Source: Enterococcus phage fHoEfa03 | Reading direction: 5' to 3' (one strand) | Length of the DNA stretch: 41,011 nt | Sequence record: PV296018.1 | Made by a program: the position numbers and the translations under genes | Shown here: positions 4,874 to 38,343 of the stretch, one piece after another | Layout: every line of letters begins with the position of its first letter | Position numbering within the stretch: the first letter of the stretch is position 1 | The notes under the pieces: model-generated | The model's database searches: none | Told to the model about the DNA's origin: nothing | The model's input: the letters and a program-made list of their open reading frames with translations, nothing else

Positions 4874-5423
4874 AATTAGACAACTACAACAGGTTGAAAC
4901 AGTAACAGACAATATTGTTGAAGGCTACGCTTTAAAGTTTGATTCACCTAGTGAAAACTTAGGTGGATTCATTGAGTTCATAGATAAGCGTGCATTAGAT
5001 GGTGTTGATATGAGTGACGTTCGTATGTTCGTTGACCATGATTCAAGTAAGTTATTAGGACGGACAAAGAGTGGAACATTAACATTAGAGGTTGACGACA
5101 TTGGGTTAAAATTTAGAGCATTACTTCCTGATACATCAGTAGGACGTGATGCAATGGAACTAGTTAAACGCGGTGACCTTAGTCAGTGTTCGTTTGGATT
5201 CACAGTTGCTAAAGATGAATGGCGCAAAGCTGATGGAATAAATCACAGAACTATCAAACAAATCAAGTCACTATTTGAAATCTCACTGGTTTCAATTCCA
5301 GCATATGCAGACACAGATGTTAGTGTGGCTAAACGTTCATTAGAACAAATGGAAGAGGAAGCAAAACAATTTCAAAAGCGTAAACTAGAATTAGAATTAA
5401 ACCTATTAGGGTTATACAAGTAA
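4836..5423 (+). CDS. Prohead maturation protease (HK97 / S78-family-like).
   Basis: ~190 aa gene between portal and capsid. The real start may be the GTG at 4860 behind an AAGGAG RBS. Confidence 0.7.
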   Translation: MKKKECQQVKNLEIRQLQQVETVTDNIVEGYALKFDSPSENLGGFIEFIDKRALDGVDMSDVRMFVDHDSSKLLGRTKSGTLTLEVDDIGLKFRALLPDTSVGRDAMELVKRGDLSQCSFGFTVAKDEWRKADGINHRTIKQIKSLFEISLVSIPAYADTDVSVAKRSLEQMEEEAKQFQKRKLELELNLLGLYK

Positions 5424-5474
5424 CACCCACAAGTTCCCTTGTTCGTGATATACTATCTTTAGTAAGAAAAATAA
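5423..5474 (+). promoter_or_regulatory. Late promoter: box ACACCCACAA, 13 nt, extended -10 TGaTATACT, conserved leader ATCTTTAGTAAGAAAAATAA.
   Basis: The same architecture is found at 8484-8535, 9232-9283 and in modified form at 18861-18892. Confidence 0.55.
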
Positions 5475-5492
5475 TATTAAAGGGGTGTGCGT

Positions 5493-6740
5493 ATGTCACG
5501 GCAAGAACTTATGGAACAAGCACAAACTTTATTATCAGAAGGTAAACTTGATGAAGCTGAAAAAGTAATGCAACAAATTAAAGCTTTAGATGAGGAAAAA
5601 CCTAAAGAAGAAGAACGTGCAGTTGATAATAAAGAAGAGGAGAAACCAGAGGAAGAACCTAAAGCAGAAGATGCTAAGGACGAACCAAAGGAAGAACCTA
5701 AAGAAGATAAGGAAGAAACAAAAGAAGAACGTTCAGCAAAAACTGAACAAGATTTTGAAGAACCTAAAGAGGAACCAAAGGAAGAACCTAAAACAGAAAA
5801 ACGCTCACTAGAGCAAAAAGGAGAAGAAAATATGGAGAAAGTTATTTTAGATGGAAAAGAAGTAGAAAATAAAGAAGTGCGTGGATTCTTAGAATACTTA
5901 CGCTCAAAAGAAACACGTGCATTGCCTGAATCATTTGAAGGTGTTAAGTCTGCGGATGCATCAGCAATTATCCCAGAAGAAATCATCACAAAAGCTAAAA
6001 TGTTACCTGAAACAGTTGTTGACTTACGTAATATGGTTACACGTCAAAAAGTAACAAATGCTATGGGTAAATATCCAATCTTGAAAGCTAATGAAGCCGT
6101 GTTGGCATCAGTTGAAGAACTTAAAAAGAACCCTGATTTAGAAGGACCAGCTTTCGAAGAAGTCAAATATGAAGTTGAAACTTACCGTGGTCAAATTGCA
6201 GTAGCAGAAGAAGCTTTACAAGATTCTGATGATGACTTATCTGGAATCATTGCACGTCACATTCAACGTCAAGGTTTGAACACAGCTAACAAAGCTATCG
6301 TTACTAAATTAAAAACAGCAACAGCAGTAGCAGCAACATCAATTGATGACTTGAAAACACAAGTTAACACTGGTTTTGACCCAGCTTACAACTTAGAGTT
6401 TATTGTTTCTCAATCATTCTTTAACGCTTTAGACCAAATGAAAGACGCTAACGGTCGTTACTTACTAGAAGATGACATCAAAGCACCATCTGGTAAATCT
6501 CTATTAGGACGTAAAGTAACTGTTTTAGCTGATAAATTAATTGGTACAGTAGACGGTGACAAAGTAGCATTCTTAGGACAACCTGATGCATTCGCAGTCT
6601 TCTTCGACCGCGTAGACACAACTGTACGTTGGGTTGAGCATCAATACTTCGGTCAAGTATTAGCAGTAGCTATGCGCTTTGACTGTGAAGTCGTTGATAA
6701 AAACGCTGGTAAATATATCACTTTAACACCAGCACCCTAG
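5493..6740 (+). CDS. Major capsid protein (HK97 fold) with an N-terminal scaffold-like acidic EPKE-repeat 'delta' domain.
   Basis: Low-complexity N-terminus (EEPKEEPKE repeats) followed by a ~300-aa capsid domain. Sits in the capsid position. The ATG at 5493 has RBS AAAGGGGTG. The gene ends CCC-TAG. Confidence 0.85.
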   Translation: MSRQELMEQAQTLLSEGKLDEAEKVMQQIKALDEEKPKEEERAVDNKEEEKPEEEPKAEDAKDEPKEEPKEDKEETKEERSAKTEQDFEEPKEEPKEEPKTEKRSLEQKGEENMEKVILDGKEVENKEVRGFLEYLRSKETRALPESFEGVKSADASAIIPEEIITKAKMLPETVVDLRNMVTRQKVTNAMGKYPILKANEAVLASVEELKKNPDLEGPAFEEVKYEVETYRGQIAVAEEALQDSDDDLSGIIARHIQRQGLNTANKAIVTKLKTATAVAATSIDDLKTQVNTGFDPAYNLEFIVSQSFFNALDQMKDANGRYLLEDDIKAPSGKSLLGRKVTVLADKLIGTVDGDKVAFLGQPDAFAVFFDRVDTTVRWVEHQYFGQVLAVAMRFDCEVVDKNAGKYITLTPAP

Positions 6741-6804
6741 TACGCCACCTGTGGTAGGACAGGTGACACCAGCTGAAACATCAGCAACAATTGAATTATC
6801 GTAA
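6735..6804 (+). other. Conserved 3' element with a candidate +1 recoding site CCC_UAG plus hairpins (cacctg/caggtg and gctga/tcagc). The +1 frame encodes STPPVVGQVTPAETSATIELS and stops at 6802-6804.
   Basis: 63 nt match 9119-9181, downstream of the major tail gene, at 62 of 63 positions. Confidence 0.5.
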
Positions 6805-6808
6805 ACAC

Positions 6809-6840
6809 TAAGAGGTGGGGCATTCGCCTTACCTCTTTTT
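6809..6840 (+). terminator. Intrinsic terminator after the capsid gene.
   Basis: aagaggtggggcattcgccttacctcttttt. The aagaggt/acctctt stem is followed by a T-run. Confidence 0.6.
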
Positions 6841-6865
6841 AAACTATAAAAGGAGAGTGTAAATT

Positions 6866-7066
6866 ATGGCTAAAGTATTTAACGTATACAAGAAAACAGG
6901 TGAAAAGATTGTGACTGGACAACCCTCACCAGTAACAATCACTGGTTTAACAGCAGAAACACCATATAGTAAAGGTGATTTTCAAGTAACAGCTATTGAA
7001 GATGGAAAACCAGAGTCTAGTAAAGTAGATGTACCAGCATTCACTACAACTGCAACAGCTGGATAA
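6866..7066 (+). CDS. Small structural protein (66 aa). Possible Ig-like decoration or head fibre protein.
   Basis: PSPVTITGLTAETPYSKGDFQVTAIEDG has a beta-rich, Ig-like flavour. Strong RBS AAAGGAGAG. Confidence 0.45.
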   Translation: MAKVFNVYKKTGEKIVTGQPSPVTITGLTAETPYSKGDFQVTAIEDGKPESSKVDVPAFTTTATAG

Positions 7067-7068
7067 TA

Positions 7069-7092
7069 AAAGAGGGTTAAGCCCTCTTTTTA
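7069..7092 (+). terminator. Intrinsic terminator.
   Basis: aagagggttaagccctctttttaa. Confidence 0.55.
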
Positions 7093-7103
7093 ACTAAGGA
7101 GGT

Positions 7104-7406
7104 ATGATAATGTTAACATTAGCAGAAGTAAAAAACAATCTAAGATTAGACTATGATTTTGATGATACCTACCTACAAGGACTGATTGATACGAGTGAAC
7201 TATTCATCTTAGGAGCTATTGAGTTAAAGACCGCACCAGATGATAAACGATTCAAGACATTACAGTTCATGTTGGTTTCATTATGGTATGAAAACAGAGT
7301 ACCAGCAACAAGCGCATTACAACAACAAGTACCCTTTACAATCGTAGCAATGATTCATCAATTAAGGGGGTTACAAGATGCCACTGATACCAACACAACG
7401 ACTTGA
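7104..7406 (+). CDS. Head-tail connector (gp6-like DNA-packaging / connector protein).
   Basis: N-terminal LTLAEVKNNLRLDYDFDD motif typical of the gp6 head-tail connector family. Correct position in the gene order. Confidence 0.65.
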   Translation: MIMLTLAEVKNNLRLDYDFDDTYLQGLIDTSELFILGAIELKTAPDDKRFKTLQFMLVSLWYENRVPATSALQQQVPFTIVAMIHQLRGLQDATDTNTTT

Positions 7407-7713
7407 CAGAAAGATAAGTATCCAACATAAAACCACTCATAAGAACGAATATTATGAGTGGGTCACTGATTGGGAAACCAAGGGCACTATATGGTGTTCA
7501 GTAAAACAACAGTATTTCAAAGACTATAAAGAATCATTAGGTACTGTTTTAGAGGATACAACAAACTTCATTATCAGATACGAACAACAGATTCATATTG
7601 ACAATACTATGCGTGTTGTATACAACGGTGTTAACTATGACATCATACAAGTATTAGAAGGTAGCTTCCAACGTGACTTTACAACGCTTGTATGTAAGAG
7701 GGTGAAGGAATGA
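7378..7713 (+). CDS. Head closure / head-tail adaptor protein.
   Basis: 111 aa. Overlapping, translationally coupled gene in the head-tail joining block. Confidence 0.55.
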   Translation: MPLIPTQRLDRKISIQHKTTHKNEYYEWVTDWETKGTIWCSVKQQYFKDYKESLGTVLEDTTNFIIRYEQQIHIDNTMRVVYNGVNYDIIQVLEGSFQRDFTTLVCKRVKE

Positions 7714-8117
7714 GTAGTCCAAACTACGTTGACTTTTCACAAGTCTACAAGCGATTAGAAAAAAGCGGTAAAAAGGCTGACCTAATTGTTAGTAAGGCAG
7801 TGAATACAGCTGGTGAAAAAGCAATGAATGAACTAAAGCAAAATACACCACGTTTTAACGGCACAAAGTATAGTAGGGATGGTCAGGACTACAAAAAAGA
7901 ACATATGCGTGACCATGTTGTAATGAGTAAAGCAAATAAGAATAACCATATAGCAGAAGTTGGCTTTGATGATGATGTGGCATGGATGGCACACTTTCCA
8001 GAGTTAGGAACAATCAAACAACGACCACAAGGGTTTATACAAAAAACAATAAACAGTATTGAGAGTGAAGTTGCATCAATCATTCAAAAAGCATTGCAGG
8101 AGGCGTTTCTAAAATGA
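7710..8117 (+). CDS. HK97 gp10-like neck / tail-completion protein.
   Basis: 135 aa. Position and size fit. Start overlaps the upstream stop (ATGA). Confidence 0.5.
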   Translation: MSSPNYVDFSQVYKRLEKSGKKADLIVSKAVNTAGEKAMNELKQNTPRFNGTKYSRDGQDYKKEHMRDHVVMSKANKNNHIAEVGFDDDVAWMAHFPELGTIKQRPQGFIQKTINSIESEVASIIQKALQEAFLK

Positions 8118-8479
8118 GATTACCAATATTACAAGTAGCAGAAGCTTTAGAGCAAGCACACCCAGAAGTCAACTGGTTTACTAATGAAGTACCCACTGAA
8201 TTTCAAACATTACCACAATTACCAGTAGGTAGAATTGTAGAACTTGACGGACGGTACACAGAATATGCCAGTGCAGACCCTAATTATTTTGTAACACATG
8301 TTCAGGTGGATTTGTGGTGTGAGGACTTGAAAGAAGTTGAAAAGTATTACTTTGAAATTGACAAGACCATGCGTGCAGATAATGTGCAGTGCGTATTATC
8401 ACAACAATCGTATGACCCAGACCTGGAGGGTGCACGTAGAGTTATCAAACGTTACACAATCAGTCAAAGAGTTGTCTAA
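8114..8479 (+). CDS. Tail terminator-like protein.
   Basis: 121-aa gene immediately upstream of the major tail protein. Confidence 0.5.
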   Translation: MRLPILQVAEALEQAHPEVNWFTNEVPTEFQTLPQLPVGRIVELDGRYTEYASADPNYFVTHVQVDLWCEDLKEVEKYYFEIDKTMRADNVQCVLSQQSYDPDLEGARRVIKRYTISQRVV

Positions 8480-8483
8480 GTGA

Positions 8484-8535
8484 CACCCTAAAACACGTTG
8501 ATTAATGATATAATTATTCTAGTAAGAAAATATAA
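8484..8535 (+). promoter_or_regulatory. Late promoter copy: ACACCCTAAA box, TGaTATAAT, leader TATTCTAGTAAGAAAATATAA.
   Basis: Aligns with 5423-5474 and 9232-9283. Confidence 0.5.
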
Positions 8536-8557
8536 ACACTAAAGGAGAGAAACAAAT

Positions 8558-9124
8558 ATGGCAGTAGTAGGTTTTAAGAAAGCTATTATCAGCGTACCTA
8601 AAGCAGAAGGTTCTGGCGTTGATAAATACACAATTGATAAAAGCGGTGGCGGTACTATTGAAGCGTCAATTCAAGGAATTTCAGCAGAACAAACAACCGT
8701 TTATGCGTCAAACGTTCCAATTTGGGTATCAGCTAAAGGGGTTGGAGAGTTAACAGCTTCATTAAACGTATTTGACTTGTATAAAGACAACGTTTATGAG
8801 AAAATTTTAGGTATTGAACGTGGTGAAGATGGTATTGCAATCGTTGGCGAAGATACAGAAGCACCTTACGTTTCAGCAGTATTTGTTGCAGACGGTGCAG
8901 ACGGTAAAGAAATGTACTTTGGTTTAGTTAAAGGACGTTTCAGCCACCCAGAAATCGCATTGAATACAACAGAATCTGGTGGTACAGAACCAAACACAGA
9001 AACAATTGAAGGTTCATTTGTAACAGATTCACGTGGCTTCGCATACATGAGTGCTGTTTCAAGCGAAACATTAACACTTGATAAGTTTGTTGACAAAGTA
9101 AACAATATTAATCCATTGCCCTAG
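8558..9124 (+). CDS. Major tail protein.
   Basis: 188 aa. Sits directly before the G / G-T chaperone and tape measure genes. The gene ends CCC-TAG. Confidence 0.8.
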   Translation: MAVVGFKKAIISVPKAEGSGVDKYTIDKSGGGTIEASIQGISAEQTTVYASNVPIWVSAKGVGELTASLNVFDLYKDNVYEKILGIERGEDGIAIVGEDTEAPYVSAVFVADGADGKEMYFGLVKGRFSHPEIALNTTESGGTEPNTETIEGSFVTDSRGFAYMSAVSSETLTLDKFVDKVNNINPLP

Positions 9125-9188
9125 TACGCCACCTGTGGTAGGACCGGTGACACCAGCTGAAACATCAGCAACAATTGAATTGACTTAG
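9119..9188 (+). other. Second copy of the conserved 3' recoding-like element (CCC_UAG plus hairpins). The +1 frame encodes STPPVVGPVTPAETSATIELT and stops at 9186-9188.
   Basis: Near-identical to 6735-6797, with one A/C difference. Confidence 0.5.
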
Positions 9189-9214
9189 AAGAGCTTAACG
9201 GCTCTTCTTTTTTA
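9188..9214 (+). terminator. Intrinsic terminator after the major tail gene.
   Basis: gaagagc-ttaacg-gctcttc stem followed by TTTTTTT. Confidence 0.65.
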
Positions 9215-9231
9215 TTACACTGGTTTCACCA

Positions 9232-9283
9232 ACACCCACAACCACTAGTGTTTATGCTATAATATCTTTAGTAAGAAAAATAA
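9232..9283 (+). promoter_or_regulatory. Late promoter copy: ACACCCACAA box, TGcTATAAT, leader ATCTTTAGTAAGAAAAATAA.
   Basis: Aligns with 5423-5474. Confidence 0.55.
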
Positions 9284-9303
9284 CTTTATTGGAGGAATCA
9301 ATT

Positions 9304-9615
9304 ATGATTAAAATTACACTACAAAATGAAGAAGGAAAAAGTTTTACAGTCAAACAAAAATCAATTTCAACTCGTTCAATGCGTGAACTAATTAAATTCC
9401 ATGCAACAGTTGAAAAAGTTGAAGCTGGTGAAGTTGAAATGTCAGAATTACAAATGATTGATGAAATGATTCAATTAGTAGCTGATATGTTCATGGACCC
9501 ACGTGTTACATTTGATGCAATTCAAGATTCAATTACAGCTGATGACCTAATGCCTACGATTGAAGATATTTTCTCAAATGCAATGGGAAGCAATGACGAA
9601 GGAAAAAAAGCCTAG
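9304..9615 (+). CDS. Tail assembly chaperone (gpG-like).
   Basis: Acidic ~100-aa protein directly upstream of the TMP. The likely start is the ATG at 9304 behind GGAGGAA; the track start at 9289 is a TTG. The gene ends with an A7 slippery run before the stop. Confidence 0.7.
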   Translation: MIKITLQNEEGKSFTVKQKSISTRSMRELIKFHATVEKVEAGEVEMSELQMIDEMIQLVADMFMDPRVTFDAIQDSITADDLMPTIEDIFSNAMGSNDEGKKA

Positions 9616-9872
9616 GGGCTGATGAGTTAAAAGAATTAGAAAATACGTCATTCACAGAACAGTTAGAAAACTTTGATGACTTATATAGACAACTATTAGA
9701 AAGTGGTAATTGGAGTTTATCAGAGATAAACAATTCTGATTACTACTTTCTTTTAGATTTATTTAACAATCAGAAAGCCCCTAAAAAAGAGAAGAAGCAA
9801 GACCCTATGTCATTCTTTGGTTCAGTATTATCACCAGCAGAGATGGCTAGAGCGAAAGGAGAAGTTGAATAA
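9304..9872 (+). CDS. G-T fusion chaperone produced by a programmed -1 frameshift at AAAAAAA (9603-9609). The -1 frame is open for ~89 codons and ends at TAA 9870-9872, overlapping the TMP start.
   Basis: Poly-A heptamer read directly in the sequence. The stop-free -1 frame (SLGADELKELENTSFTEQLENFDDLYRQLLESGNWSLSEINNSDYYFLLDLFNNQKAPKKEKKQDPMSFFGSVLSPAEMARAKGEVE) exactly fills the gap to the TMP start. This matches the conserved G/GT paradigm of long-tailed phages. Confidence 0.65.
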
Positions 9873-12800: not shown

Positions 12801-14242
12801 GAATTAAGAACACATTTAGTACAGGTATTAAAACAGTTTCAGGCTGGTTTGCTGACCTACCAAACCAAATGGTAAGAGCAGTGAAGAACGGTGCTGGTGC
12901 AATTACTAATGCATTCAAGAGTATTTTCAACGGTGTACTACGAGCAATTGGCGGTCCAGTAAATGGTATTATTGGCGGTGCTAACTGGGTACTAGAAAAG
13001 TTTGGTGCGCCAACAGTTGCTAAATGGGATGTACCACAGTACGAACAAGGAACTGGTTCAGGTGGTCACGTAGGTGGACCAATGGTTGTCAATGACGGTG
13101 GTGGTGCTGAAATGGTCATTACACCAGATGGTAATGCAATGATACCTAAAGGACGTAACGTACTGATGAACGCACCTAAAGGTACACATGTATTAAACGA
13201 ACATGAAACATCCGCATTCTTAGGTAAACGTGGGCGAGTTCCGTTCTACAAAAAAGGAACTGGTTTCATGGATGGGGTAAAAGACATGTGGTCTAATACA
13301 AAATCATTTGTAGGTAACGGAATCAACAAGGTAAAAGAAACCATTGGCGATATTATGGATTGGGTAGGTAAACCATTAGACCTAGCACGCAATGCTATTA
13401 TGGGTGCAATGGACTTAGGTGGACTATCACATATCCCACTTGACATGGCAAAAGGCTTAGGTGGTAAAGCGACAAATGCCTTTGCTGAAAAAGTTAAAGC
13501 CTTATTCAAGAAAAAAGAGGAAGAAGAATCAGCTGGGGCTGGTGGTGACTGGGCTCCTGTTATCCGCAAGGCGGCGAAATACATGGGTCAATCAATCAGT
13601 AGTTCACAGGTAGCTGGTTTAGTTGCTCAAATCATGCGTGAATCAGGTGGTAATGAAAAGATTGTTCAAAGTCCAGATGTGGTTGACATTAACACATTAA
13701 GTGGTAACCCAGCACGTGGATTATTACAATATATTCCACAGACGTTTGATGCCTACAAAGTTGCTGGTCATGGTAACATTAACAATGGTTATCACCAATT
13801 GTTAGCATTCTTCAATAATAGTAACTGGGAAAATGACTTACAGTACGGTAAGTCTGGTTGGGGTCCACGTGGTCACCGTATCAGAGGATACTTCAATGGT
13901 GGTATTGCAAGAACACCACAGATTGCAACACTAGCTGAAAATGGCTATCCAGAAGTTATCATACCTACTGAACCATCTAAACGAGGTAGAGCAATGGCAT
14001 TACTTAACCAAGCTAAACAAATGCTAGGGGTTAAGGATGAACGCAACCATGTTGGTGGAAGTGGTGAATCACAAGATATAGCATTATTAGTTGGTTTAAT
14101 GCAACAGCAGAACGAACTATTGCAAGCTATCTTAGCTAAAAATACAGATATTGTATTGGATGGTAAGAAAATGAACAAGGAACTAAATGCTATACAGGCA
14201 GTAAACGAACGTAACGCAAGACGTAACATGGGTATAATTTAA
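9872..14242 (+). CDS. Tape measure protein with a C-terminal lytic transglycosylase (SLT-like) domain.
   Basis: 1456 aa. Coiled-coil N-terminus. Gly-rich periodic FxNxxSG / WNGxKN repeats. C-terminal MRESGGNE...GLLQYIPQTF motif typical of an SLT catalytic domain. Confidence 0.85.
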   Translation: MADKPIGNMKFGIGVEGVDNTIKTLDQLQSKMRQAESAMRANAKAFDDGGKSMQGLSQKTKDLNTVMGLEEQKIKILQKRRDEAIQKYGAESKQVDNLNTKINQSTAKYNAYNQQLSKTTTALEKQVVSSSKYGRQVEANNKATEKEVAIAKKHGTEIDVVKAKQEGQRRNLEIMNKAVREQSNEVTQLTKKYGANSTEVKEAQQKLQAYANEARKSEKNVDALGDELKETEKAMKGVSTESKEASSSASKLDGVFSSLKKTASGVGSSIKSGFGKIGSAIGSATKGVGIFLGAGALGAVANIGSKAFDTVKSSIDGALNRIDTLNNSTRAFENMGVATKDITKNMDKLQEATRGLPTALDSAVSNVQLLTASTDDMGLSVDVFKAMNDAILGFGGDAQMVDSAVVQLSQSFSNGKVDAQTWNSMINSGLGPTLNALAKEMGMTTGALKEGLSSGSISVRQFQDALVKMDKEGGGGLKSLEKIAKDSTQGFGTAIANMKSAVTRGTAKMIEGLNKSLEKMGLPSFQEQITNTGKRFEAFLGGLGDSLPELAKNLSWVGKLFKGTFDVFGKVTGEAWGYLSDFGKKVGMWAENIKRIWKGEGIINVGALGLDAKGINRIDSAVNQFKSAFSGLKSWGYNFKSAWEGKGLVDLDMLGLSDEKMKTVSDAIVGIKESLGRFKDYIKNAFTFGTGDGTPAGFFETLTKVVDFITVEVIPTIIPLIDKALKAITKLLGGAQKIFKSVLNFFVKELLPMIMPIIQELAEALGKIFDKISNWWDQNGDRIGKAIMNLLTLLKPIFAIAIEVVKSFVKSVVGFIDGMVDVITGIIDVFSMVLTGDFTGLWDAIKRIFFGGIKAVWEWFNLMFIGKIFKGVKGLGTSVKGTIKGMWDAVKNFFTSGGSSAGALFDRFGGSIKGIANNFKNAISGTVSNMWNGVKNFFSSGANGAKNIFDGFKNGISGIANTMKNLVSNTIRNLWNGIKNTFSTGIKTVSGWFADLPNQMVRAVKNGAGAITNAFKSIFNGVLRAIGGPVNGIIGGANWVLEKFGAPTVAKWDVPQYEQGTGSGGHVGGPMVVNDGGGAEMVITPDGNAMIPKGRNVLMNAPKGTHVLNEHETSAFLGKRGRVPFYKKGTGFMDGVKDMWSNTKSFVGNGINKVKETIGDIMDWVGKPLDLARNAIMGAMDLGGLSHIPLDMAKGLGGKATNAFAEKVKALFKKKEEEESAGAGGDWAPVIRKAAKYMGQSISSSQVAGLVAQIMRESGGNEKIVQSPDVVDINTLSGNPARGLLQYIPQTFDAYKVAGHGNINNGYHQLLAFFNNSNWENDLQYGKSGWGPRGHRIRGYFNGGIARTPQIATLAENGYPEVIIPTEPSKRGRAMALLNQAKQMLGVKDERNHVGGSGESQDIALLVGLMQQQNELLQAILAKNTDIVLDGKKMNKELNAIQAVNERNARRNMGII

Positions 14243-30392: not shown

Positions 30393-30424
30393 TGTTGTTT
30401 CCTCCTTAGTTATCTTATGTACCT

Positions 30425-30453
30425 ACTATATCATAGGATATAGTAGTTGTCAA
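30425..30453 (-). promoter_or_regulatory. Early promoter TTGACA-N17-TATAGT with an embedded 10-bp palindrome (ctactatatc / gatatagtag) and CATAAGATAACTAAGGAGG leader.
   Basis: Read as the reverse complement of 30425-30453. The same architecture is at 37274-37302. Confidence 0.55.
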
Positions 30454-30630
30454 CTATTTAATTGTATAAAATACTAAATTTTCTAATTTTAAGGTGAATG
30501 TTTCTGAATCACCAAAACTAAGTTCTAAAAATCGTTGTGTGATATTTACACGTTTAACATTGGTAAATAAGATATTTCTATTATCTTTACCAGCCATAAA
30601 GTTTACTGTTACTTCTTTTAATTCTTTCAT
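30454..30630 (-). CDS. Hypothetical 58-aa protein. Its start ATG overlaps the stop of the helicase gene (ATGA).
   Basis: MKELKEVTVNFMAGKDNRNILFTNVKRVNITQRFLELSFGDSETFTLKLENLVFYTIK. Below the ORF-track cutoff. Confidence 0.4.
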   Translation of the reverse strand: MKELKEVTVNFMAGKDNRNILFTNVKRVNITQRFLELSFGDSETFTLKLENLVFYTIK

Positions 30631-31922
30631 TTTAATATATCCTCCATCATTTCATTAGTAAAGTCTTTTCCTTGTGTGATTGTCTCAAATATCTTTTTTT
30701 CTACAGGTGTATCAGGAACAATGAAATAGTAAAGTGGTTTCTCTGTTTGACCATGCCTGTCAATCCGTGCTTTAGCTTGTATTAACTCAACTGAACTTAA
30801 TGGTAAACTGTTAAACACCATAATATTCGCTATGACGAAGTCATTTATGCCCGTAGAAGCTGATTTGAAGTGTGCTAGGACTACTGCGTTAGATTTACCT
30901 TTGAACTCTTTTAAATCCTTTCTAGTGCCATTATATTCGCTTGTAGGGCGTTTTAGCTTGCTTAGTAATTGTTTTAGCATTTCAAGTTCTTTATTATAAT
31001 TATAGAAAATAACCACGCGCTCGTTGTTATGTGTTTCTAAGATAGCTTGTAATCTTTCAAATGGTTCTTTGCTTACCTGTTTATTGATTCCCAATAAGAA
31101 ACCATGTGACACACAGCGCATTGCGTTAAATAGTTTACTGCTATTATCTAACTCAATCACTTCACCGTTATCTGCTTTGTACATGCGGTTCTTTTTCAGC
31201 TTGCTGTACATACTTGGTTTTTTGGTTTTGTAGTAATAGTCTTCTGGAAAATATGGCTTGTCACGTTTGAATTTTACAGAACATTCATCAATCATTTGTT
31301 GCAATAAATGCTCGTTCTGATAGCCAACAATGTCCATAAATCGCATAGAACCCATTTGTCGCATTTGCTTAATAACAAATAGTTGCTCAAACTCTTTTTT
31401 AGGTTTTCTAAAAACATTAAGCATATATAATTGACTATAGTAGTTTTCAAGCTTTCCATTACTAACTGGTGTTGCTGTTAATAGTCTAACATACTTAGTT
31501 TTCTTTGTCAACTTCATTACAAACTTTGTAACCTTAGAACTAGTTACCCCCACTTTATGTGCTTCATCCACAATTATGAAAGTATCTTCATCAACCCACT
31601 TCAATAATTCAGTGATACGCCAAACACTTTCAAAACTGATTGCAACTCGTTTTGATTCAGCTAATAACTCTTTATTTTTCTTTGTTCCTTTGTTAAGTGG
31701 TGTAATATCAATACCCATCAAAGCCCCATCTTCTGCAAAGTCCGCCACCTTTGGGGCTAAACAGATAACTAATAGCTTACTACAGCCACTTTGCAGGTAG
31801 GCACCTAAGGCGGTGAAGGTCTTCCCTGTTCCAGCATCAGATAAATCGTAAGGGTGTGTATTCCATTTTTCAATACCTTCAATTTGCGTTGGTAATAGTT
31901 CAATTTTTCCAATCTTAGTCAT
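30627..31922 (-). CDS. SNF2 / DEAD-DEAH-box superfamily-2 helicase.
   Basis: Walker A DAGTGKT. DEAH-type IIVDEAHKV. C-terminal helicase domain. The probable start is the Met at 31922 (MTKIGKIELLPTQ), overlapping the VRR-NUC stop. Confidence 0.75.
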   Translation of the reverse strand: MTKIGKIELLPTQIEGIEKWNTHPYDLSDAGTGKTFTALGAYLQSGCSKLLVICLAPKVADFAEDGALMGIDITPLNKGTKKNKELLAESKRVAISFESVWRITELLKWVDEDTFIIVDEAHKVGVTSSKVTKFVMKLTKKTKYVRLLTATPVSNGKLENYYSQLYMLNVFRKPKKEFEQLFVIKQMRQMGSMRFMDIVGYQNEHLLQQMIDECSVKFKRDKPYFPEDYYYKTKKPSMYSKLKKNRMYKADNGEVIELDNSSKLFNAMRCVSHGFLLGINKQVSKEPFERLQAILETHNNERVVIFYNYNKELEMLKQLLSKLKRPTSEYNGTRKDLKEFKGKSNAVVLAHFKSASTGINDFVIANIMVFNSLPLSSVELIQAKARIDRHGQTEKPLYYFIVPDTPVEKKIFETITQGKDFTNEMMEDILK

Positions 31923-32316
31923 ATAGTACTTCCACCTTATCATCTTTAATATCTGGTAAATATGGTTGTTCATAATTGAAATAAATATCATCTGCACCAT
32001 AGTACACTGCACTTTCCATGTTATCCAAATAAAGTAATAGGTCCTCTAAATCATCAAGCGTATCTCTTAATAGTAAACCATATCCACCAGCACATCTAAC
32101 TTCTTGTAAGTATCTAATTTGTAATGGGTCTGGCTGGTAGTTCCCTGTTTTAAGCTCTAATGCAATGAAGTAACCACTATAACACGCTTCAATATCTGCA
32201 CGTCCCACACGGTCATATATGGTTGCTGTGTTAACATTTACAACCGCTCCTTTTGATTTCAAGTATTCTACTACTTCTTTACTAAATTTAGCTTCTTTTT
32301 TCACGTGCTGAACCAC
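31915..32316 (-). CDS. VRR-NUC domain nuclease (PD-(D/E)xK).
   Basis: GRADIEACYSGYFIALELKTG contains the D...E-L-K catalytic pattern. 133 aa. Confidence 0.6.
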   Translation of the reverse strand: MVQHVKKEAKFSKEVVEYLKSKGAVVNVNTATIYDRVGRADIEACYSGYFIALELKTGNYQPDPLQIRYLQEVRCAGGYGLLLRDTLDDLEDLLLYLDNMESAVYYGADDIYFNYEQPYLPDIKDDKVEVLYD

Positions 32317-32329
32317 CTTTTTTATTACC

Positions 32330-32521
32330 TTATAACATATTTGTCAATACTTCAATGGCTTTTTCTACATCAATATTATTTTGAGAAAATACACCTAACA
32401 TTGCTAATACTGTGTATGTTGCATACTTTTCTATGTCATCTTGTGAAACACCTTTACTTCTGAAATCATTTTCCAGTTCATTCAAAATATTGTCAATTGC
32501 AATATTACGTTCTGTTTTCAT
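32330..32521 (-). CDS. Hypothetical protein (63 aa).
   Basis: ORF only. Confidence 0.4.
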   Translation of the reverse strand: MKTERNIAIDNILNELENDFRSKGVSQDDIEKYATYTVLAMLGVFSQNNIDVEKAIEVLTNML

Positions 32522-32523
32522 TA

Positions 32524-32733
32524 TTATTCTTCCTCTCCAATTACTAATTCAATTCCGCCCCATGATTCATTGTAACTGATATTTAATACCTTTGTCAACT
32601 CATTATATTTATTAAATAATCGTGCCACTGACTTATCACTTGTTGTATCAATTACTAATGCAGTCATACCGTTTGATTCTTTCACTACTAAAAAATGACT
32701 GTCAACAACTTCATATGCTTGTAATAAATTCAT
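32524..32733 (-). CDS. Hypothetical protein (69 aa).
   Basis: ORF only. Confidence 0.4.
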   Translation of the reverse strand: MNLLQAYEVVDSHFLVVKESNGMTALVIDTTSDKSVARLFNKYNELTKVLNISYNESWGGIELVIGEEE

Positions 32734-32734
32734 T

Positions 32735-32929
32735 TTAGTTATCCTCCTTGAATGTTTGAGTTGCTAAGAACGTTAATACGAATGATATAGACCATGCTAT
32801 CATTACAGCATCCCTTGAACCTGTGAATACGATTGTAAAGATACCTACTAAAAATGCCACCAATACAGCTGTTAAAACTTCTAAATTTTCATTCATCTTA
32901 TTTTTCCTCCAATTTTTTAATTTTTTCAT
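32735..32929 (-). CDS. Small membrane protein (64 aa, two TM helices).
   Basis: LTAVLVAFLVGIFTIVF and MIAWSISFVLTFLAT. Confidence 0.45.
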   Translation of the reverse strand: MKKLKNWRKNKMNENLEVLTAVLVAFLVGIFTIVFTGSRDAVMIAWSISFVLTFLATQTFKEDN

Positions 32930-33170
32930 CTAGTTGTTTGATTAACTCTTTATTGTCTAATGTTTTTGTGATACTTGATACTTCAATTCCTGATACTACT
33001 TTATACTCTAAAATAATATCTTGTTGACGTTCGTTCAATTCTTTGTATAAGTGTAACTCTTGTTTAGCTTCATTCAATTTCTGCTTGTTTAAGTTGTTTG
33101 TCAACATTGCTGTACTTCCTGAAAAACTTAATCCTACTGCCAATCCAATAATTAATCCTTTATGTTTCAT
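32898..33170 (-). CDS. Secreted or membrane-anchored coiled-coil protein (90 aa, N-terminal signal peptide/lipoprotein-like anchor).
   Basis: MKHKGLIIGLAVGLSFSGSTAM followed by a charged coiled-coil. Confidence 0.45.
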   Translation of the reverse strand: MKHKGLIIGLAVGLSFSGSTAMLTNNLNKQKLNEAKQELHLYKELNERQQDIILEYKVVSGIEVSSITKTLDNKELIKQLDEKIKKLEEK

Positions 33171-33201
33171 TTATTTATTCCTCCTAATTGATTATATACT
33201 T

Positions 33202-33230
33202 AGTATAAATGATTGTTTTTATTTTGTCAA
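33202..33230 (-). promoter_or_regulatory. Early promoter TTGACA-N17-TATACT.
   Basis: Reverse complement of tgtcaa at 33225-33230 and agtata at 33202-33207. Confidence 0.45.
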
Positions 33231-33680
33231 GTGTTTTGGTAAATTAATTTTTAAATTTTTATTATATCGCCTTGGGTCAAGTGTCTTATGTCTATCACTA
33301 GCTTTGTTTAAATAGCTTGTAATTACTTTACCGCTATATAGAGAAACTACTATACATTGTACTACTATATCATCAATAGATTCACCTACATGCCCAATTC
33401 CTGAACGAATCAAAACACGTTTATCTGCACCTGTTTCGTTATATTCAATAATTTCACCATGTATCATTGCTTCCATTGCTCGCAGATATGAAAATTTAGT
33501 TTCACCGTTTCTTATTTTATCTTGTAAGTGATACCCTGTTTTTATACCACGCTTTAACCACAGGTCTTTCACTCTGTCTTTTGCTTTGTTTAGTTGTTCT
33601 TTCTCTTGTGTAGTACATTGCGTAATGTGTTTCTTTACTTGTCCTTGTGTTTTCTTTACTGTTCCAATTTGAAAGTCCAT
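33219..33680 (-). CDS. Hypothetical protein (153 aa).
   Basis: ORF with an AGGAGG RBS. Confidence 0.5.
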   Translation of the reverse strand: MDFQIGTVKKTQGQVKKHITQCTTQEKEQLNKAKDRVKDLWLKRGIKTGYHLQDKIRNGETKFSYLRAMEAMIHGEIIEYNETGADKRVLIRSGIGHVGESIDDIVVQCIVVSLYSGKVITSYLNKASDRHKTLDPRRYNKNLKINLPKHLTK

Positions 33681-33709
33681 CTCATATCCTCCTTTTAATT
33701 TATGAATTA

Positions 33710-33738
33710 AGTATATCAGTTGGGGCTGAACTTGTCAA
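33710..33738 (-). promoter_or_regulatory. Early promoter TTGACA-N17-TATACT with CATAAGTTAAGAGGAGG leader (copy 1 of a tandemly duplicated cassette).
   Basis: Identical copy at 33973-34001. Confidence 0.5.
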
Positions 33739-33752
33739 CCCCTTTTCTGATT

Positions 33753-33941
33753 TTATTTTAAGTTTTCTAATACTGTTTCAGTTAGTAAAATCACATCTAA
33801 CATGTTTTCTAGTCTGTCGTTTAGTTCATGTCCTAGTTCTTTGTTTCCGTTGTCGTATGCTTCAATCATTTGCGCTTTTAACTCGTCATATCTTTTATTT
33901 AGTCTTTCTAATTTCGCTTCATATCTTTGTTTTGTTGTCAT
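33753..33941 (-). CDS. Hypothetical 62-aa coiled-coil protein (paralog A).
   Basis: ~70% identical to 34016-34204. The C-terminal 24 aa (RLNDRLENMLDVILLTETVLENLK) match 23 of 24. Confidence 0.55.
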   Translation of the reverse strand: MTTKQRYEAKLERLNKRYDELKAQMIEAYDNGNKELGHELNDRLENMLDVILLTETVLENLK

Positions 33942-33972
33942 GTTTTTTTTCCTCCTCTTAACTTATGAATTA

Positions 33973-34001
33973 AGTATATCAGTTGGGGCTGAACTTGTCA
34001 A
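33973..34001 (-). promoter_or_regulatory. Early promoter TTGACA-N17-TATACT (copy 2 of the tandem cassette).
   Basis: See 33710-33738. Confidence 0.5.
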
Positions 34002-34015
34002 CCCCTTTTCTGATT

Positions 34016-34204
34016 TTATTTTAAGTTTTCTAATACTGTTTCAGTTAGTAAAATCACATCTAACATGTTTTCTAGTCTGTCGTTTAATCTATGTCCTTTT
34101 TCGTTATCTCCTTTGTCGTATGCTTCAATCATTTCAGCTTTTAATTTGTCAAATCTTTCGTTTAATTTTTGTAATTTGTTTTCGTATTTTTCTTTAGTTG
34201 TCAT
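34016..34204 (-). CDS. Hypothetical 62-aa coiled-coil protein (paralog B).
   Basis: Tandem paralog of 33753-33941. Confidence 0.55.
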   Translation of the reverse strand: MTTKEKYENKLQKLNERFDKLKAEMIEAYDKGDNEKGHRLNDRLENMLDVILLTETVLENLK

Positions 34205-34233
34205 TGTTTAATTCCTCCCTTAACTTATGAACT

Positions 34234-34262
34234 AAGTATACCATGCACAAAAAAGAAAGTCA
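34234..34262 (-). promoter_or_regulatory. Early promoter TTGACT-N17-TATACT with CATAAGTTAAGGGAGG leader.
   Basis: Reverse complement of agtcaa at 34257-34262 and agtata at 34234-34239. Confidence 0.45.
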
Positions 34263-34292
34263 ACTGTTTTAGTCAACTTTCTTTAAATTATT

Positions 34293-35879: not shown

Positions 35880-35908
35880 TATTATTCCTCCTAATATCTT
35901 ATGACATT

Positions 35909-35937
35909 AATATACCATGTAAAAAAGAGAAAGTCAA
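35909..35937 (-). promoter_or_regulatory. Early promoter TTGACT-N17-TATATT with CATAAGATATTAGGAGG leader.
   Basis: Reverse complement of agtcaa at 35932-35937 and aatata at 35909-35914. Confidence 0.45.
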
Positions 35938-35973
35938 CTGTTTTATTTAACTTTCTCCCTTATAATAGCATAT

Positions 35974-36609: not shown

Positions 36610-36623
36610 TACTATTCCTCCTA

Positions 36624-37302: not shown

Positions 37303-37307
37303 GTGTT

Positions 37308-38127: not shown

Positions 38128-38140
38128 TTAACTGTTCCTC

Positions 38141-38329: not shown

Positions 38330-38343
38330 TTTGTTTCCTCCTC

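What the first reader, a model, noticed from the sequence alone, without database searches (positions are those of the whole stretch)
9119..9188. Second copy of the putative +1 recoding cassette, at the major tail protein 3' end
See the previous finding. This copy differs by a single A/C change, which alters one residue (Q to P) in the predicted extension. The predicted extension reading frame is conserved while the flanks are not. That argues for selection on the element rather than a recent random duplication.
Basis: partly seen in the sequence, partly recalled or inferred. Interest (0 to 1): 0.75.

Follow-up and report, generated by a model that had tools for sequence, protein, structure and literature searches.

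The report
Frameshift tag on phage tail protein
The tail-tube gene of this Enterococcus phage, like its capsid gene, ends in a slippery CCC-stop site that most likely lets some ribosomes add a 21-residue tail, and that tail looks like the missing first two strands of a small incomplete FN3 protein encoded next to the capsid gene, suggesting a natural tag-and-catcher way of decorating both head and tail.

Summary
The window is an Efquatrovirus (Enterococcus siphophage). The major tail protein (MTP) and capsid genes both end CCC_TAG. They share a 63-nt block (62/63 identical) whose +1 frame is open for 21 codons. The last 7 nt differ, so two residues differ, not one. The C at 9145 (Q to P) is absent from all GenBank relatives. 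The +1 recoding reading is well supported: CCC is rare (10/11,992 codons) and closes only these two genes; codon differences are about 54% synonymous in the +1 frame against about 6% in the others; and the peptide persists in about 20 relatives, some with a different shift site (CCC_AGY). This matches the known shifty-stop +1 frameshifts of SPP1 gp17.1* and Listeria phage PSA Tsh. The new part is inferred: the 21-residue peptide resembles FN3 strands A-B, and the 66-aa ORF at 6866..7066 is an FN3 lacking those strands. The pairing [quoted passage not shown] recurs in ten further contexts, reached by +1, -1 or no frameshift. Physical docking is not shown.

The parts
8558..9124 (+). Major tail (tube) protein gene, 188 aa, 19.9 kDa in the zero frame
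   Evidence: ORF list. Pfam Phage_TTP_1 at E 3e-8. PHROG 88 'major tail protein' at E 3e-42. Annotated as major tail protein in relatives.
9119..9124 (+). Proposed +1 shift site CCC_UAG. Peptidyl-tRNA(Pro) would re-pair from CCC to CCU while UAG waits in the A site.
   Evidence: Sequence. CCC is rare and closes only this gene and the capsid gene. CCC_TAG is conserved at this place in most Efquatrovirus genomes and replaced by CCC_AGY in EFA1, IME_EF3 and EFAP-1. Precedents are SPP1 CCCUAA and Listeria CCC_UGA.
9123..9188 (+). +1-frame extension: 21 codons plus TAG, reading STPPVVGPVTPAETSATIELT*. It would raise the MTP to 209 aa and 21.9 kDa. Proposed FN3 A-B strand 'tag'.
   Evidence: It scores 9.9 bits against an HMM of A-B strands taken from intact FN3 homologues, reached by 3 of 500 shuffles. 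It scores E 5e-4 against a tag HMM built without any Efquatrovirus sequence, and it is one of only two hits in the six-frame window.
9130..9149 (+). Hairpin region 8 nt after CCC (CACCUGU-GGUAGG-ACCGGUG). In this copy it is weakened by the private C at 9145, which gives a U.C mismatch.
   Evidence: Folds. The capsid copy forms a 7-bp stem (-17.8 kcal/mol, z -2.5). In this copy the stem is lost from the minimum-energy structure (z -1.4). Relatives carry A or G here.
9187..9215 (+). Intrinsic terminator directly after (and overlapping) the extension's stop codon
   Evidence: (9-bp stem followed by a T run).
5487..6740 (+). Major capsid protein gene (417 aa), which also ends in CCC_TAG (6735-6740)
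   Evidence: Pfam Phage_capsid at E 2e-27.
6739..6804 (+). First copy of the +1 extension, STPPVVGQVTPAETSATIELS*, with an intact hairpin at 6746-6765 and a terminator at 6812-6840
   Evidence: A-B strand HMM score 11.7 bits, reached by 0 of 500 shuffles. Independent tag HMM E 6e-6.
6866..7066 (+). 66-aa ORF (6.9 kDa): an FN3 domain that lacks strands A and B. Proposed 'catcher' for both tags. It has its own RBS and sits after the capsid terminator.
   Evidence: A weak Pfam fn3 match (E 0.1) covers only HMM positions 36-81 of 84. AlphaFold2 model has pLDDT 88.8 and leaves the E strand unpaired. Foldseek hits are FN3 domains, best Bxb1 gp30. A profile search gave 630 hits, including multi-FN3 proteins. 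The homologue in phage vB_EfaS-271 was detected by MS at 94% coverage.

Best explanation
The 70 nt at the end of the tail-tube gene are a programmed +1 ribosomal frameshift site of the 'shifty stop' type.

Step 1 (inferred). A ribosome holds peptidyl-tRNA(Pro) on the rare CCC codon with UAG in the A site. A fraction of such ribosomes slip one base forward onto the overlapping CCU. A hairpin starting 8 nt downstream probably helps; it is weakened in this genome's tail copy.

Step 2 (inferred). Those ribosomes add 21 residues and stop just before the transcription terminator. The same cassette does the same job on the capsid gene. That the +1 frame is translated is supported only by comparative sequence analysis.

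Step 3 (inferred). The added peptide is not a whole domain. It corresponds to beta-strands A and B of an FN3 domain. The 66-aa protein encoded after the capsid gene (6866..7066) is the rest of that domain, strands C to G. I propose that the peptide acts as a docking tag, and that the 66-aa fragment binds it by completing its own beta-sandwich (strand complementation).

Consequence. One small gene would decorate a frameshift-determined fraction of both head and tail-tube subunits with FN3 modules.
For: Frameshift.
- Rare CCC sits at the end of only these two genes, both with TAG.
- The +1 ORF is reachable only by a shift.
- Substitutions follow the +1 codon frame: 849/711 synonymous/non-synonymous, against 85/1448 and 84/1406 in the other frames.
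- The cassette is more conserved than the flanking coding sequence.
- The peptide is retained where the shift site differs: CCC_AGY in IME_EF3, EFAP-1 and EFA1.
- Stem-loops are predicted shortly downstream of the shift site, starting 3-9 nt after it in 8 of 14 cassettes from several lineages; five of these eight reach z <= -2.3 against shuffles.
- Experimental precedents are SPP1 CCCUAA and Listeria tsh CCC_UGA.
- For phiEf11, two capsid bands were reported together with a proposed 21-aa -1 extension. Here that extension turns out to be a homologous tag.

Tag and catcher.
- The 66-aa ORF aligns to fn3 HMM positions 36-81 only.
- Adding the extension through a neutral linker extends the match to position 12 and raises the score from 13.6 to 16.2 bits. 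In the scrambled and reversed controls the match, where reported, still began at position 31.
- Intact homologues carry extension-like A-B strands just upstream, for example PPTVESVTPTDTTASIEM in P0118.
- An A-B HMM scores the extensions above 497-500 of 500 shuffles.
- 43 of 91 N-complete matches among remote homologues start at residue 1 of their protein.
- In 10 further contexts the gene before a truncated FN3 ORF ends with an A-B-like peptide. It is reached by +1 (phi12), by -1 (Aramis, iLp84, L. plantarum prophage, L030, E. faecium prophage) or in frame (phiEf11 MTP, Levilactobacillus capsid, Kayvirus TmpH, Bxb1 gp29).
- Three other lineages also tag both capsid and tail.
- A tag HMM built without Efquatrovirus sequences finds exactly the two extensions in the six-frame window.
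- An untrained prediction was met: Kayvirus gpORF127 carries a C-terminal tag just before TmpH.
- KEN18 has neither tag nor catcher.
- In Bxb1, gp29 (tail spike) and gp30 (tail wing base) are both chains of the solved structure 9d93 and are reported to bind each other.
Against: - No protein-level data exist for this phage or any Efquatrovirus. The published MS of vB_EfaS-271, as far as read here, reports matches to annotated proteins only.
- The Pfam fn3 matches are all below the gathering score, and the gain from adding the extension is only about 2.6 bits.
- The one natural proxy, P0091 (catcher plus a C-terminal tag-like peptide), did not dock its tag with confidence (pLDDT 59-69).
- The Aramis extension is not significant against the A-B HMM.
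- The tags used for the tag HMM were picked by position but judged by eye.
- PMBT2 has a stop codon 7 codons into its tail-gene extension, so the tail tag may be dispensable.
- The window's own tail copy has a weakened hairpin and a Q-to-P change.
- I could not inspect the 9d93 coordinates or read the Bxb1 structure paper.
Confidence: 0.62

Rival explanations
1. The +1 frameshift is real, but the 21-residue extension works on its own. It could be a short linker, a surface peptide, or a decayed remnant of a once-complete frameshifted FN3 domain. The neighbouring 66-aa protein would be an independent decoration or tail protein that does not bind it.
For: Short recoded extensions with no domain are known: PSA Tsh gains 24 acidic residues by +1 at CCC_UGA and has no catcher. 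AlphaFold2 models the 66-aa protein alone with pLDDT 88.8. The proxy P0091 did not dock its own tag. PMBT2 tolerates a truncated tail tag.
Against: The tag co-occurs with the truncated FN3 gene, at the junction with it, in all 10 further contexts examined and across four host genera. Both are absent in KEN18. The tag matches the strands that the 66-aa protein lacks. A decaying remnant would not keep +1-frame synonymous substitution patterns, nor be more conserved than the genes it follows.
Confidence: 0.2
2. The repeat is a non-coding 3' element shared by two highly expressed late transcripts. It could be an RNA stability, processing or terminator-associated structure, kept alike by gene conversion and not translated.
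For: Both copies lie between a stop codon and an intrinsic terminator. They contain predicted hairpins. Within-genome copies are as alike as orthologous copies in other genomes, which suggests sequence exchange.
Against: Substitutions follow the +1 codon frame, with roughly ten-fold more synonymous differences than in the other frames, including TCA<->AGT serine switches. The peptide, not the nucleotide sequence, is what is conserved in IME_EF3/EFAP-1 and in other genera, where it is reached in a different frame or in frame. There is no Rfam match. The main hairpin is broken in the window's own tail copy.
Confidence: 0.05
3. The extension is made by another route than +1 ribosomal slippage: UAG readthrough, -1 slippage or transcriptional slippage.
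For: Homologous tags in other phages are reached by -1 shifts, so the direction is not fixed in the family.
Against: Here the zero frame after TAG reads YATCGRTGDTS* and the -1 frame reads LVRHLW*. Neither frame shows coding-like substitution. There is no homopolymer run longer than CCC for polymerase slippage. Only CCC-to-CCU allows re-pairing within the short overlap of the two frames.
Confidence: 0.03
4. A recent chance duplication or a recombination scar with no function.
For: 62/63 identity in this genome.
Against: Both copies are present in all ~20 Efquatrovirus genomes examined, down to about 76% genome-region identity. Analogous double tagging exists in three unrelated lineages with different sequences.
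Confidence: 0.02

Closest known systems
Bacillus phage SPP1 tail tube proteins gp17.1 / gp17.1* (+1 frameshift at CCC_UAA)
   Same: Same gene class (tail tube protein). The shift site has the same logic: a rare CCC immediately before the stop and an overlapping CCU in the +1 frame. The extension belongs to an FN3 domain, and the product is sub-stoichiometric, 3:1 in SPP1.
   Different: SPP1 adds a whole 87-residue FN3 domain in cis. Here only 21 residues (strands A-B) are added, and the rest of the domain is a separate gene product. The stop codon is UAG rather than UAA. The same cassette is also on the capsid gene.
Listeria phages PSA, A118 and A500: +1 frameshift at CCC_UGA in tsh, with recoding of both cps and tsh
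   Same: Shifty-stop +1 slippage on CCC at the 3' end of the major tail gene, in a low-GC host where CCC is rare. Both major structural genes are recoded, the extension is short (24 aa in PSA Tsh) and it ends at a terminator.
   Different: The PSA Tsh extension (ETPLELPLENESGIGDDSEETTQD) is acidic, is not tag-like, and has no catcher gene in the first 12 kb of the genome, which holds the head and tail genes. The PSA capsid and tail extensions differ from each other, whereas here they are the same peptide.
Enterococcus phage phiEf11 major head protein ORF10 (published proposal of a -1 frameshift adding 21 aa; two virion bands of 38 and 41 kDa)
   Same: An Enterococcus siphophage with a 21-residue recoded capsid extension and a stem-loop just downstream. 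Two capsid species were seen on gels. The extension, IEAPKVESVIPTTDGASIVLS, is a homologous tag. Its MTP also carries the tag, and a truncated-FN3 gene (ORF16) follows.
   Different: The shift is -1 on A_AAA_AAA rather than +1 on CCC_UAG. The MTP tag is in frame, so all subunits carry it. The catcher gene follows the MTP rather than the capsid gene and carries an extra Big_2 domain. The published paper did not link the extension to ORF16.
Mycobacteriophage Bxb1 tail spike gp29 / tail wing base gp30 (PDB 9d93)
   Same: gp29 ends with FN3 A-B-like strands (PPNVSALHVDVSATSTSITITPS). The overlapping next gene, 30, starts with the C-G fragment that is the best PDB match to the 66-aa ORF. The two proteins are reported to bind in the solved tail tip.
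   Different: No frameshift is involved. The proteins are tail-tip components, not capsid or tube. The host phylum differs. I could not check whether the two pieces form one sandwich in the coordinates.
Donor-strand complementation in chaperone-usher pili, and engineered split-domain tag/catcher pairs
   Same: It would work like these: an incomplete Ig-like sandwich completed by strand(s) supplied by another polypeptide (established knowledge; not tested here).
   Different: There is no homology and no chaperone or usher, and here two N-terminal strands are missing rather than the C-terminal G strand. No covalent bond is implied. This is an analogy of mechanism, not family membership.

Membership tests
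Shifty-stop +1 programmed ribosomal frameshift (SPP1 gp17.1*, Listeria tsh type) | A rare CCC proline codon immediately 5' of the zero-frame stop codon | tested here: met
   CCC_TAG at 9119-9124. CCC accounts for 10 of 11,992 codons and is the last sense codon of only the capsid and MTP genes.
Shifty-stop +1 programmed ribosomal frameshift (SPP1 gp17.1*, Listeria tsh type) | An overlapping synonymous Pro codon in the +1 frame (CCU) that allows P-site re-pairing, with a +1 ORF reachable only from that site | tested here: met
   CC-C-U reads CCU in the +1 frame. The +1 ORF opens 7 codons upstream (9102) and runs to 9188.
Shifty-stop +1 programmed ribosomal frameshift (SPP1 gp17.1*, Listeria tsh type) | The extension frame is under protein-coding selection and is conserved in relatives | tested here: met
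   849 synonymous / 711 non-synonymous codon differences in the +1 frame against 85/1448 and 84/1406 in the others. The extension is present in all Efquatrovirus genomes examined.
Shifty-stop +1 programmed ribosomal frameshift (SPP1 gp17.1*, Listeria tsh type) | A stimulatory element (downstream structure or slow termination) | tested here: inconclusive
   A 7-bp hairpin 8 nt after CCC is present in the capsid copy and in relatives' tail copies, but it is disrupted in this tail copy by C9145. There is one compensatory pair between IME_EF3 and EFAP-1. No upstream SD-like motif is visible.
Shifty-stop +1 programmed ribosomal frameshift (SPP1 gp17.1*, Listeria tsh type) | Two protein species that share an N-terminus, with a junction peptide shown by MS or sequencing | not testable with these tools
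   No proteomic data searched against recoded sequences exist for this genus. Indirect support comes from the two ORF10 bands in phiEf11.
Ig-like/FN3 domain appended to a phage structural protein by frameshift (Fraser et al. 2006 class; SPP1 gp17.1*) | The recoded extension encodes a complete Ig-like/FN3 domain (about 80-100 aa) | tested here: not met
   The extension is 21 aa and corresponds only to strands A-B. It is therefore not a member in the strict sense, although it may reach the same end in trans.
Proposed split-FN3 tag/catcher pairs (this report; no published family found) | The catcher is an FN3 domain that begins at strand C at the protein's N-terminus | tested here: met
   fn3 HMM positions 36-81 of 84 align with residues 8-54. 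43 of 91 N-complete remote matches start at residue 1. The model has FN3-like Foldseek hits.
Proposed split-FN3 tag/catcher pairs (this report; no published family found) | The tag is a C-terminal peptide homologous to FN3 strands A-B | tested here: met
   A-B HMM scores are 11.7 and 9.9 bits, reached by 0 and 3 of 500 shuffles. The independent tag HMM gives E 6e-6 and 5e-4, the only two hits in the window.
Proposed split-FN3 tag/catcher pairs (this report; no published family found) | The tag-bearing gene lies immediately upstream of the catcher gene | tested here: not met
   This is met for the capsid copy (6739-6804, then 6866). It is not met for the tail copy under review, which lies 2.1 kb downstream of the catcher gene and is followed by the tail chaperone gene. 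The same second, non-adjacent copy is seen in the L. plantarum prophage, L030 and phiEf11.
Proposed split-FN3 tag/catcher pairs (this report; no published family found) | Physical complementation of tag and catcher into one beta-sandwich | not testable with these tools
The natural proxy was inconclusive.
Tail assembly chaperone G/GT -1 frameshift | A slippery heptamer inside the chaperone gene between the MTP and tape-measure genes | tested here: not met
   That element exists separately, in the run GGAAAAAAAG at 9600-9609 inside ORF 9289..9615. The finding at 9119-9188 is a different site in a different gene.

The most novel reading that the evidence does not exclude
Programmed frameshifting here appends not a domain but a two-strand 'tag'. 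A separately encoded, incomplete FN3 'catcher' binds the tag by fold complementation. One 66-aa gene could then decorate both capsid and tail at levels set by frameshift efficiency. The same split-FN3 junction would be a widespread, unrecognised way of attaching accessory proteins in phages of Firmicutes and Actinobacteria. Examples seen here are Enterococcus, Lactobacillus and Staphylococcus sipho- and myophages and mycobacteriophage Bxb1. In some phages catchers carry their own tags and could form chains.
Probability: 0.55. Interest if true: 0.9.

Novelty: new variant of a known kind. Interest (0 to 1): 0.8.

Why it matters
If only the frameshift holds, this adds a genus of therapeutic Enterococcus phages to the short list with +1 shifty-stop recoding. 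About 120 GenBank genomes would then be annotated without two virion protein isoforms.

If the tag/catcher reading also holds, four things follow.

- It explains why identical short peptides are appended to two unrelated structural proteins.
- It explains why many small phage 'major tail protein' or 'Ig-like' ORFs begin abruptly in the middle of an FN3 domain.
- It gives a general rule for predicting which phage proteins bind each other: a C-terminal A-B peptide pairs with the N-terminal C-G fragment of the next gene.
- It offers a natural, non-covalent display system for engineering Enterococcus, Staphylococcus and Lactobacillus phages.

It also makes an old question testable: what frameshift-added Ig-like modules do, and how their copy number is set. 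Tag, catcher and shift site can each be mutated separately.

Tried and rejected
- AlphaFold2 of a natural homologue that carries catcher plus a C-terminal tag-like peptide (P0091) gave a confident core but a low-confidence, undocked tail, so it was inconclusive.
- Pfam on the 66-aa ORF alone gave no hit at E<=0.01 and only a sub-threshold fn3 match at relaxed E. My first linker contained a Trp, which biases the fn3 score, so I discarded that result and repeated with GSGSGS plus scrambled controls.
- Close homologues of the 66-aa ORF are all 43-76 aa and gave no intact-domain relatives. The profile search was needed for that.
- Rfam showed nothing on the cassette, and there are no tRNA genes.
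- Literature searches for Efquatrovirus plus frameshift, for strand complementation in phage tails, and for Enterococcus phage cryo-EM found no description of this element or of split FN3 domains. The library lacks most subscription journals.
- The Bxb1 structure paper and the Lactobacillus A2 frameshift paper are not held.
- I considered and rejected readthrough, -1 slippage and transcriptional slippage on the basis of frame content and substitution pattern.
- I also rejected the idea that the tail copy is part of the G/GT chaperone frameshift, which is a separate site.
- IMG/VR returned mostly the same GenBank phages and added little.
Full report
WHAT THE WINDOW IS. Region 5400-9300 is 99.9% identical to Enterococcus phage vB_Efa_VP15 and 99% or more to LY0322, AL3 and IME-EF4. 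All are lytic E. faecalis siphophages of the genus Efquatrovirus, and 124 GenBank records match. The gene order is protease, capsid (5487..6740, Pfam Phage_capsid), a 66-aa ORF (6866..7066), four head-tail connector genes, the major tail protein or MTP (8558..9124, Phage_TTP_1), the tail chaperone (9289..9615) and the tape measure. No relative whose annotation I inspected marks a frameshift in the capsid or MTP gene.

THE OBSERVATION. The MTP gene ends CCC TAG at 9119-9124. The +1 frame from 9123 is open for 21 codons, reads STPPVVGPVTPAETSATIELT, and ends at TAG 9186-9188, which overlaps the stem of an intrinsic terminator. The capsid gene ends with the same CCC TAG (6735-6740), followed by STPPVVGQVTPAETSATIELS, then TAA at 6802-6804 and a terminator. 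The shared block is 63 nt (6735-6797 / 9119-9181) with one mismatch, and the sequences on both sides are unrelated. Over the quoted 70 nt there are 5 differences, because the last 7 nt differ, so the peptides differ at two residues. No GenBank phage matches the 101-nt tail region exactly: the eleven closest are each one mismatch away, and IME196, one of these eleven, has A at the position of C9145. The Q-to-P change is therefore a private mutation of this genome (or a sequencing error), not a property of the element.

IS THE +1 FRAME TRANSLATED? Five independent lines say yes.
(i) CCC is the rarest proline codon: 10 of 350 Pro codons and 10 of 11,992 codons in 56 ORFs. It is the last sense codon of only the capsid and MTP genes, each time followed by TAG. 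CCCTAG occurs nowhere else on the + strand.
(ii) In every genome the +1 ORF opens only 3-8 codons before the stop and has no start codon with an RBS, so it can be entered only by shifting.
(iii) Among 23 distinct cassettes from about 20 genomes, codon differences are 849 synonymous to 711 non-synonymous in the +1 frame, against 85:1448 and 84:1406 in the other two frames. They include TCA<->AGT serine switches. The pairwise counts are not independent events, but the contrast between frames is large.
(iv) Between genomes the cassette differs at 6-7 of 63 positions, whereas the adjoining 63 nt of the capsid and MTP genes differ at 13.6 and 26.9.
(v) The peptide survives where the nucleotide context does not. 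IME_EF3 and EFAP-1 have CCC_AGY a few codons before the stop in both genes, and EFA1 has TTA CCC AGC TAA in the MTP. The same peptide still follows in the +1 frame.
The zero frame (YATCGRTGDTS*) and the -1 frame (LVRHLW*) are short and show no coding signal.

MECHANISM OF THE SHIFT (inferred). The site has exactly the anatomy of two experimentally proven cases. In SPP1, ribosomes pause on a rare CCC and shift to the overlapping CCU in CCCUAA, which makes gp17.1* at a 3:1 ratio. In Listeria phages PSA, A118 and A500, tsh is decoded with a +1 shift at CCC_UGA. In the capsid copy a 7-bp hairpin (CACCUGU/ACAGGUG) starts 8 nt after CCC, which would place it at the mRNA entrance when CCC is in the P site (-17.8 kcal/mol, z -2.5). 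Stem-loops are predicted to start 3-9 nt after the shift site in 8 of 14 cassettes from several lineages, and five of these eight reach z <= -2.3 against shuffles. IME_EF3 and EFAP-1 differ by one compensatory pair. In the window's own tail copy C9145 breaks this stem, so shifting there may be less efficient than in relatives. There is no Rfam match and no phage tRNA.

TWO COPIES. Capsid and tail cassettes within one genome differ at 0-13 of 63 positions (mean 5.5). This is no more than orthologous cassettes differ between genomes: 6.6 and 6.0, with 6.8 for cross comparisons. The two loci therefore do not evolve as separate lineages. Either they exchange sequence or they are held to one optimum. 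PMBT2 is an exception: a CAG-to-TAG change truncates its tail extension after 7 residues while the rest of the cassette is still intact.

WHAT THE PEPTIDE IS. The 66-aa ORF after the capsid gene gives only a weak Pfam fn3 match (E 0.1). That match covers HMM positions 36-81 of 84, which are strands C to G, and the protein has only seven residues before it. Joining the extension to it through a neutral GSGSGS linker extends the match to HMM position 12 and raises the score to 16.2 bits. The linker-only control scores 13.6 bits, and in the scrambled and reversed controls the match, where reported, still begins at position 31. The effect is small, and all scores are below Pfam's threshold.

AlphaFold2 models the ORF with pLDDT 88.8. 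Strand E, which would normally pair with strand B, is left unpaired. Foldseek returns FN3 domains, including anastellin, a fibronectin FN3 fragment.

A profile search of 1.8 billion representatives gave 630 hits. One class is large multi-FN3 proteins. The other is many small proteins in which the match begins at residue 1 (43 of 91 N-complete matches). In intact homologues, the residues just upstream of the matched part look like the extension: PPTVESVTPTDTTASIEM-loop-TMILY in P0118, VSNITDTSATITV-loop-RTFNIY in P0188, against TPPVVGQVTPAETSATIELS here. An HMM of 43 such upstream segments scores the capsid and tail extensions at 11.7 and 9.9 bits, reached by 0 and 3 of 500 shuffles. The sizes fit too: 21 + 66 = 87 residues, the length of the FN3 that SPP1 adds in one piece.

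THE PATTERN RECURS. I looked at every other context I could fetch in which an ORF begins with this truncated FN3. In all ten, the upstream gene ends with an A-B-like peptide.
- Aramis capsid: -1 on a GGGGG run.
- S. aureus phage phi12 MTP: +1 at TTA CCC AGC TAA.
- Lactobacillus iLp84 capsid: -1.
- Kayvirus A5W TmpH, followed by TmpI: in frame (all three).
- L. plantarum prophage capsid: -1 at G_GGA_AAA.
- Metagenomic phage L030 capsid: -1 at A_AAG.
- E. faecium prophage MTP: -1, with VTSPVVGAITPTINEATVELS, clearly homologous to the window's tag.
- Levilactobacillus capsid: in frame (all three).
- phiEf11 MTP, followed by ORF16: in frame.
- Bxb1 gp29, followed by gp30: in frame, with overlapping genes.

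Three of these lineages also carry a second copy of the tag on the other major structural gene, as the window does: the L. plantarum prophage, L030 and phiEf11. The phiEf11 capsid copy is the 21-aa -1 extension that its authors proposed in order to explain two ORF10 bands in virions. KEN18, which has no truncated FN3 gene, has no tag.

A tag HMM built without any Efquatrovirus sequence was scanned over all six-frame fragments of the window. It finds only 6727-6801 (E 6e-6) and 9102-9185 (E 5e-4), with the next hit at E 1.3. The catcher profile finds only 6863-7063. One untrained prediction came true: Kayvirus gpORF127, the gene before TmpH (which itself starts with a catcher), ends ...PSAPKNVQVTPKEDGADVSAE. 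Some small homologues carry both a catcher and a C-terminal tag (P0091, P0214, P0215, P0218), which would allow chains.

HOW IT PROBABLY WORKS. Shown by sequence: the shift-site anatomy, coding selection in the +1 frame, and the complementary halves of an FN3 fold on separate polypeptides with conserved synteny. Inferred: a fraction of capsid and tube subunits carry the 21-residue tag; the 6.9-kDa fragment binds the tag by completing its sandwich; the result is FN3 decoration of head and tail at a level set by shift efficiency. A homologue of the fragment is abundantly detected by MS in vB_EfaS-271 lysate at 94% coverage.

The best outside support comes from Bxb1. The best PDB sequence match to the catcher is the N-terminus of gp30, the 'tail wing base' (9d93_S). 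The tag-bearing gp29 is the 'tail spike' in the same entry, and gp30 is reported to attach to the tail spike. I could not inspect the coordinates or the paper. Direct modelling was not possible, and the one proxy was inconclusive. The docking step therefore remains a hypothesis, which I put at about 0.55-0.65. I put the frameshift itself at about 0.85.

COMPARISON WITH KNOWN SYSTEMS. As a recoding signal this is a new member of the CCC-stop +1 class (SPP1, PSA, A118, A500). PSA's Tsh also gains only 24 residues and ends at a terminator, but that peptide is acidic, is unrelated, and has no partner gene. As a way of displaying Ig-like modules it fails the defining feature of the Fraser/SPP1 class, because the extension is not a domain. 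It would reach the same end in trans. In mechanism it resembles donor-strand complementation and engineered tag/catcher pairs, without being related to them. I found no description of split FN3 domains at phage gene junctions, or of this element in Efquatrovirus, in the searchable literature. That search is incomplete.

VERDICT. The +1 recoding interpretation is supported. The element is most likely one of two tags for a trans-completed FN3 decoration, which makes it a new variant of a known kind and worth experimental follow-up.

Noticed in passing
window 9598-9700 (inside and after ORF 9289..9615): This is the canonical tail-assembly-chaperone -1 frameshift. The run GGAAAAAAAG (9600-9609) lies just before the stop, and the -1 frame continues as KKSLGADELKELENTSF... 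for about 90 codons up to the tape-measure gene. The G/GT element is known, and it is separate from the finding.
   Followed up: partly
window 5422-5479, 8480-8540, 9231-9288: A repeated motif (ACACCC...TATAAT-like...TTTAGTAAGAAAA) lies upstream of the capsid, MTP and chaperone genes; repeat family D9 is 79% identical. It is probably a shared late promoter or leader. Each of these units ends in its own terminator.
   Followed up: no
L004 (phage PMBT2) 4011-4080: The PMBT2 tail-gene cassette has CAG changed to TAG in the +1 frame. Its tail extension would stop after STPPVVG, although the downstream cassette sequence is still intact. This may be a natural knock-out of the tail tag.
   Followed up: partly
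L028 (Staphylococcus Kayvirus A5W) 1319-2728: Three consecutive virion genes look like a chain of split FN3 junctions. gpORF127 ends with a tag. TmpH starts with a catcher and ends with a tag. TmpI starts with a catcher.
   Followed up: partly
L034 (mycobacteriophage Bxb1) 13950-14200: gp29 (tail spike) ends with FN3 A-B-like strands. The overlapping gene 30 (tail wing base, a D-Ala-D-Ala carboxypeptidase) begins with strands C-G. Both are chains of PDB 9d93, so the complementation could be checked directly in a solved structure.
   Followed up: partly
L029 (L. plantarum prophage) 2900-2971 and 5380-5451; proteins P0091, P0214, P0215, P0218: Capsid and MTP both end G_GGA_AAA plus a stop, with homologous -1 extensions and a 9-12 bp stem. 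The catcher here also carries its own C-terminal tag-like peptide, so catchers could polymerise head to tail.
   Followed up: partly
L035 (Listeria phage PSA) 5120-5290: The annotated +1 extension of PSA Cps (..MKVVELKEELDKRGITYNTSDLKSDLILKLEEDD..) looks like a SAP/HeH-type helix-extended-helix motif. That is an unexpected thing to append to a capsid protein.
   Followed up: no
window 5571-5800: E/K/P-rich imperfect 12-nt-phased repeats (family D1) lie in the N-terminal part of the capsid gene. They probably belong to a scaffolding-like delta domain that the prohead protease removes.
   Followed up: no
window 33687-34212 and 30403-38406: There is a 263-nt tandem duplication (88% identity). Several 57-62-nt repeats ending in GTCAACT/TGTCAAG motifs also lie in the early region. 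They may be repeated early promoters or operators.
   Followed up: no
L012 (phage EF36P2) 1-175: The record starts with three tandem copies of a segment encoding VEDGKESAKVDVPEFTTLA, the C-terminal part of the catcher. This is probably an assembly artefact at the genome end.
   Followed up: no
L033 (phiEf11) and paper PMC5221750: The phiEf11 MTP (ORF15) is predicted at 21.5 kDa but ran at 28-30 kDa on SDS-PAGE. This MTP carries the tag in frame. Whether the anomalous migration relates to the tag or its partner is unknown.
   Followed up: no
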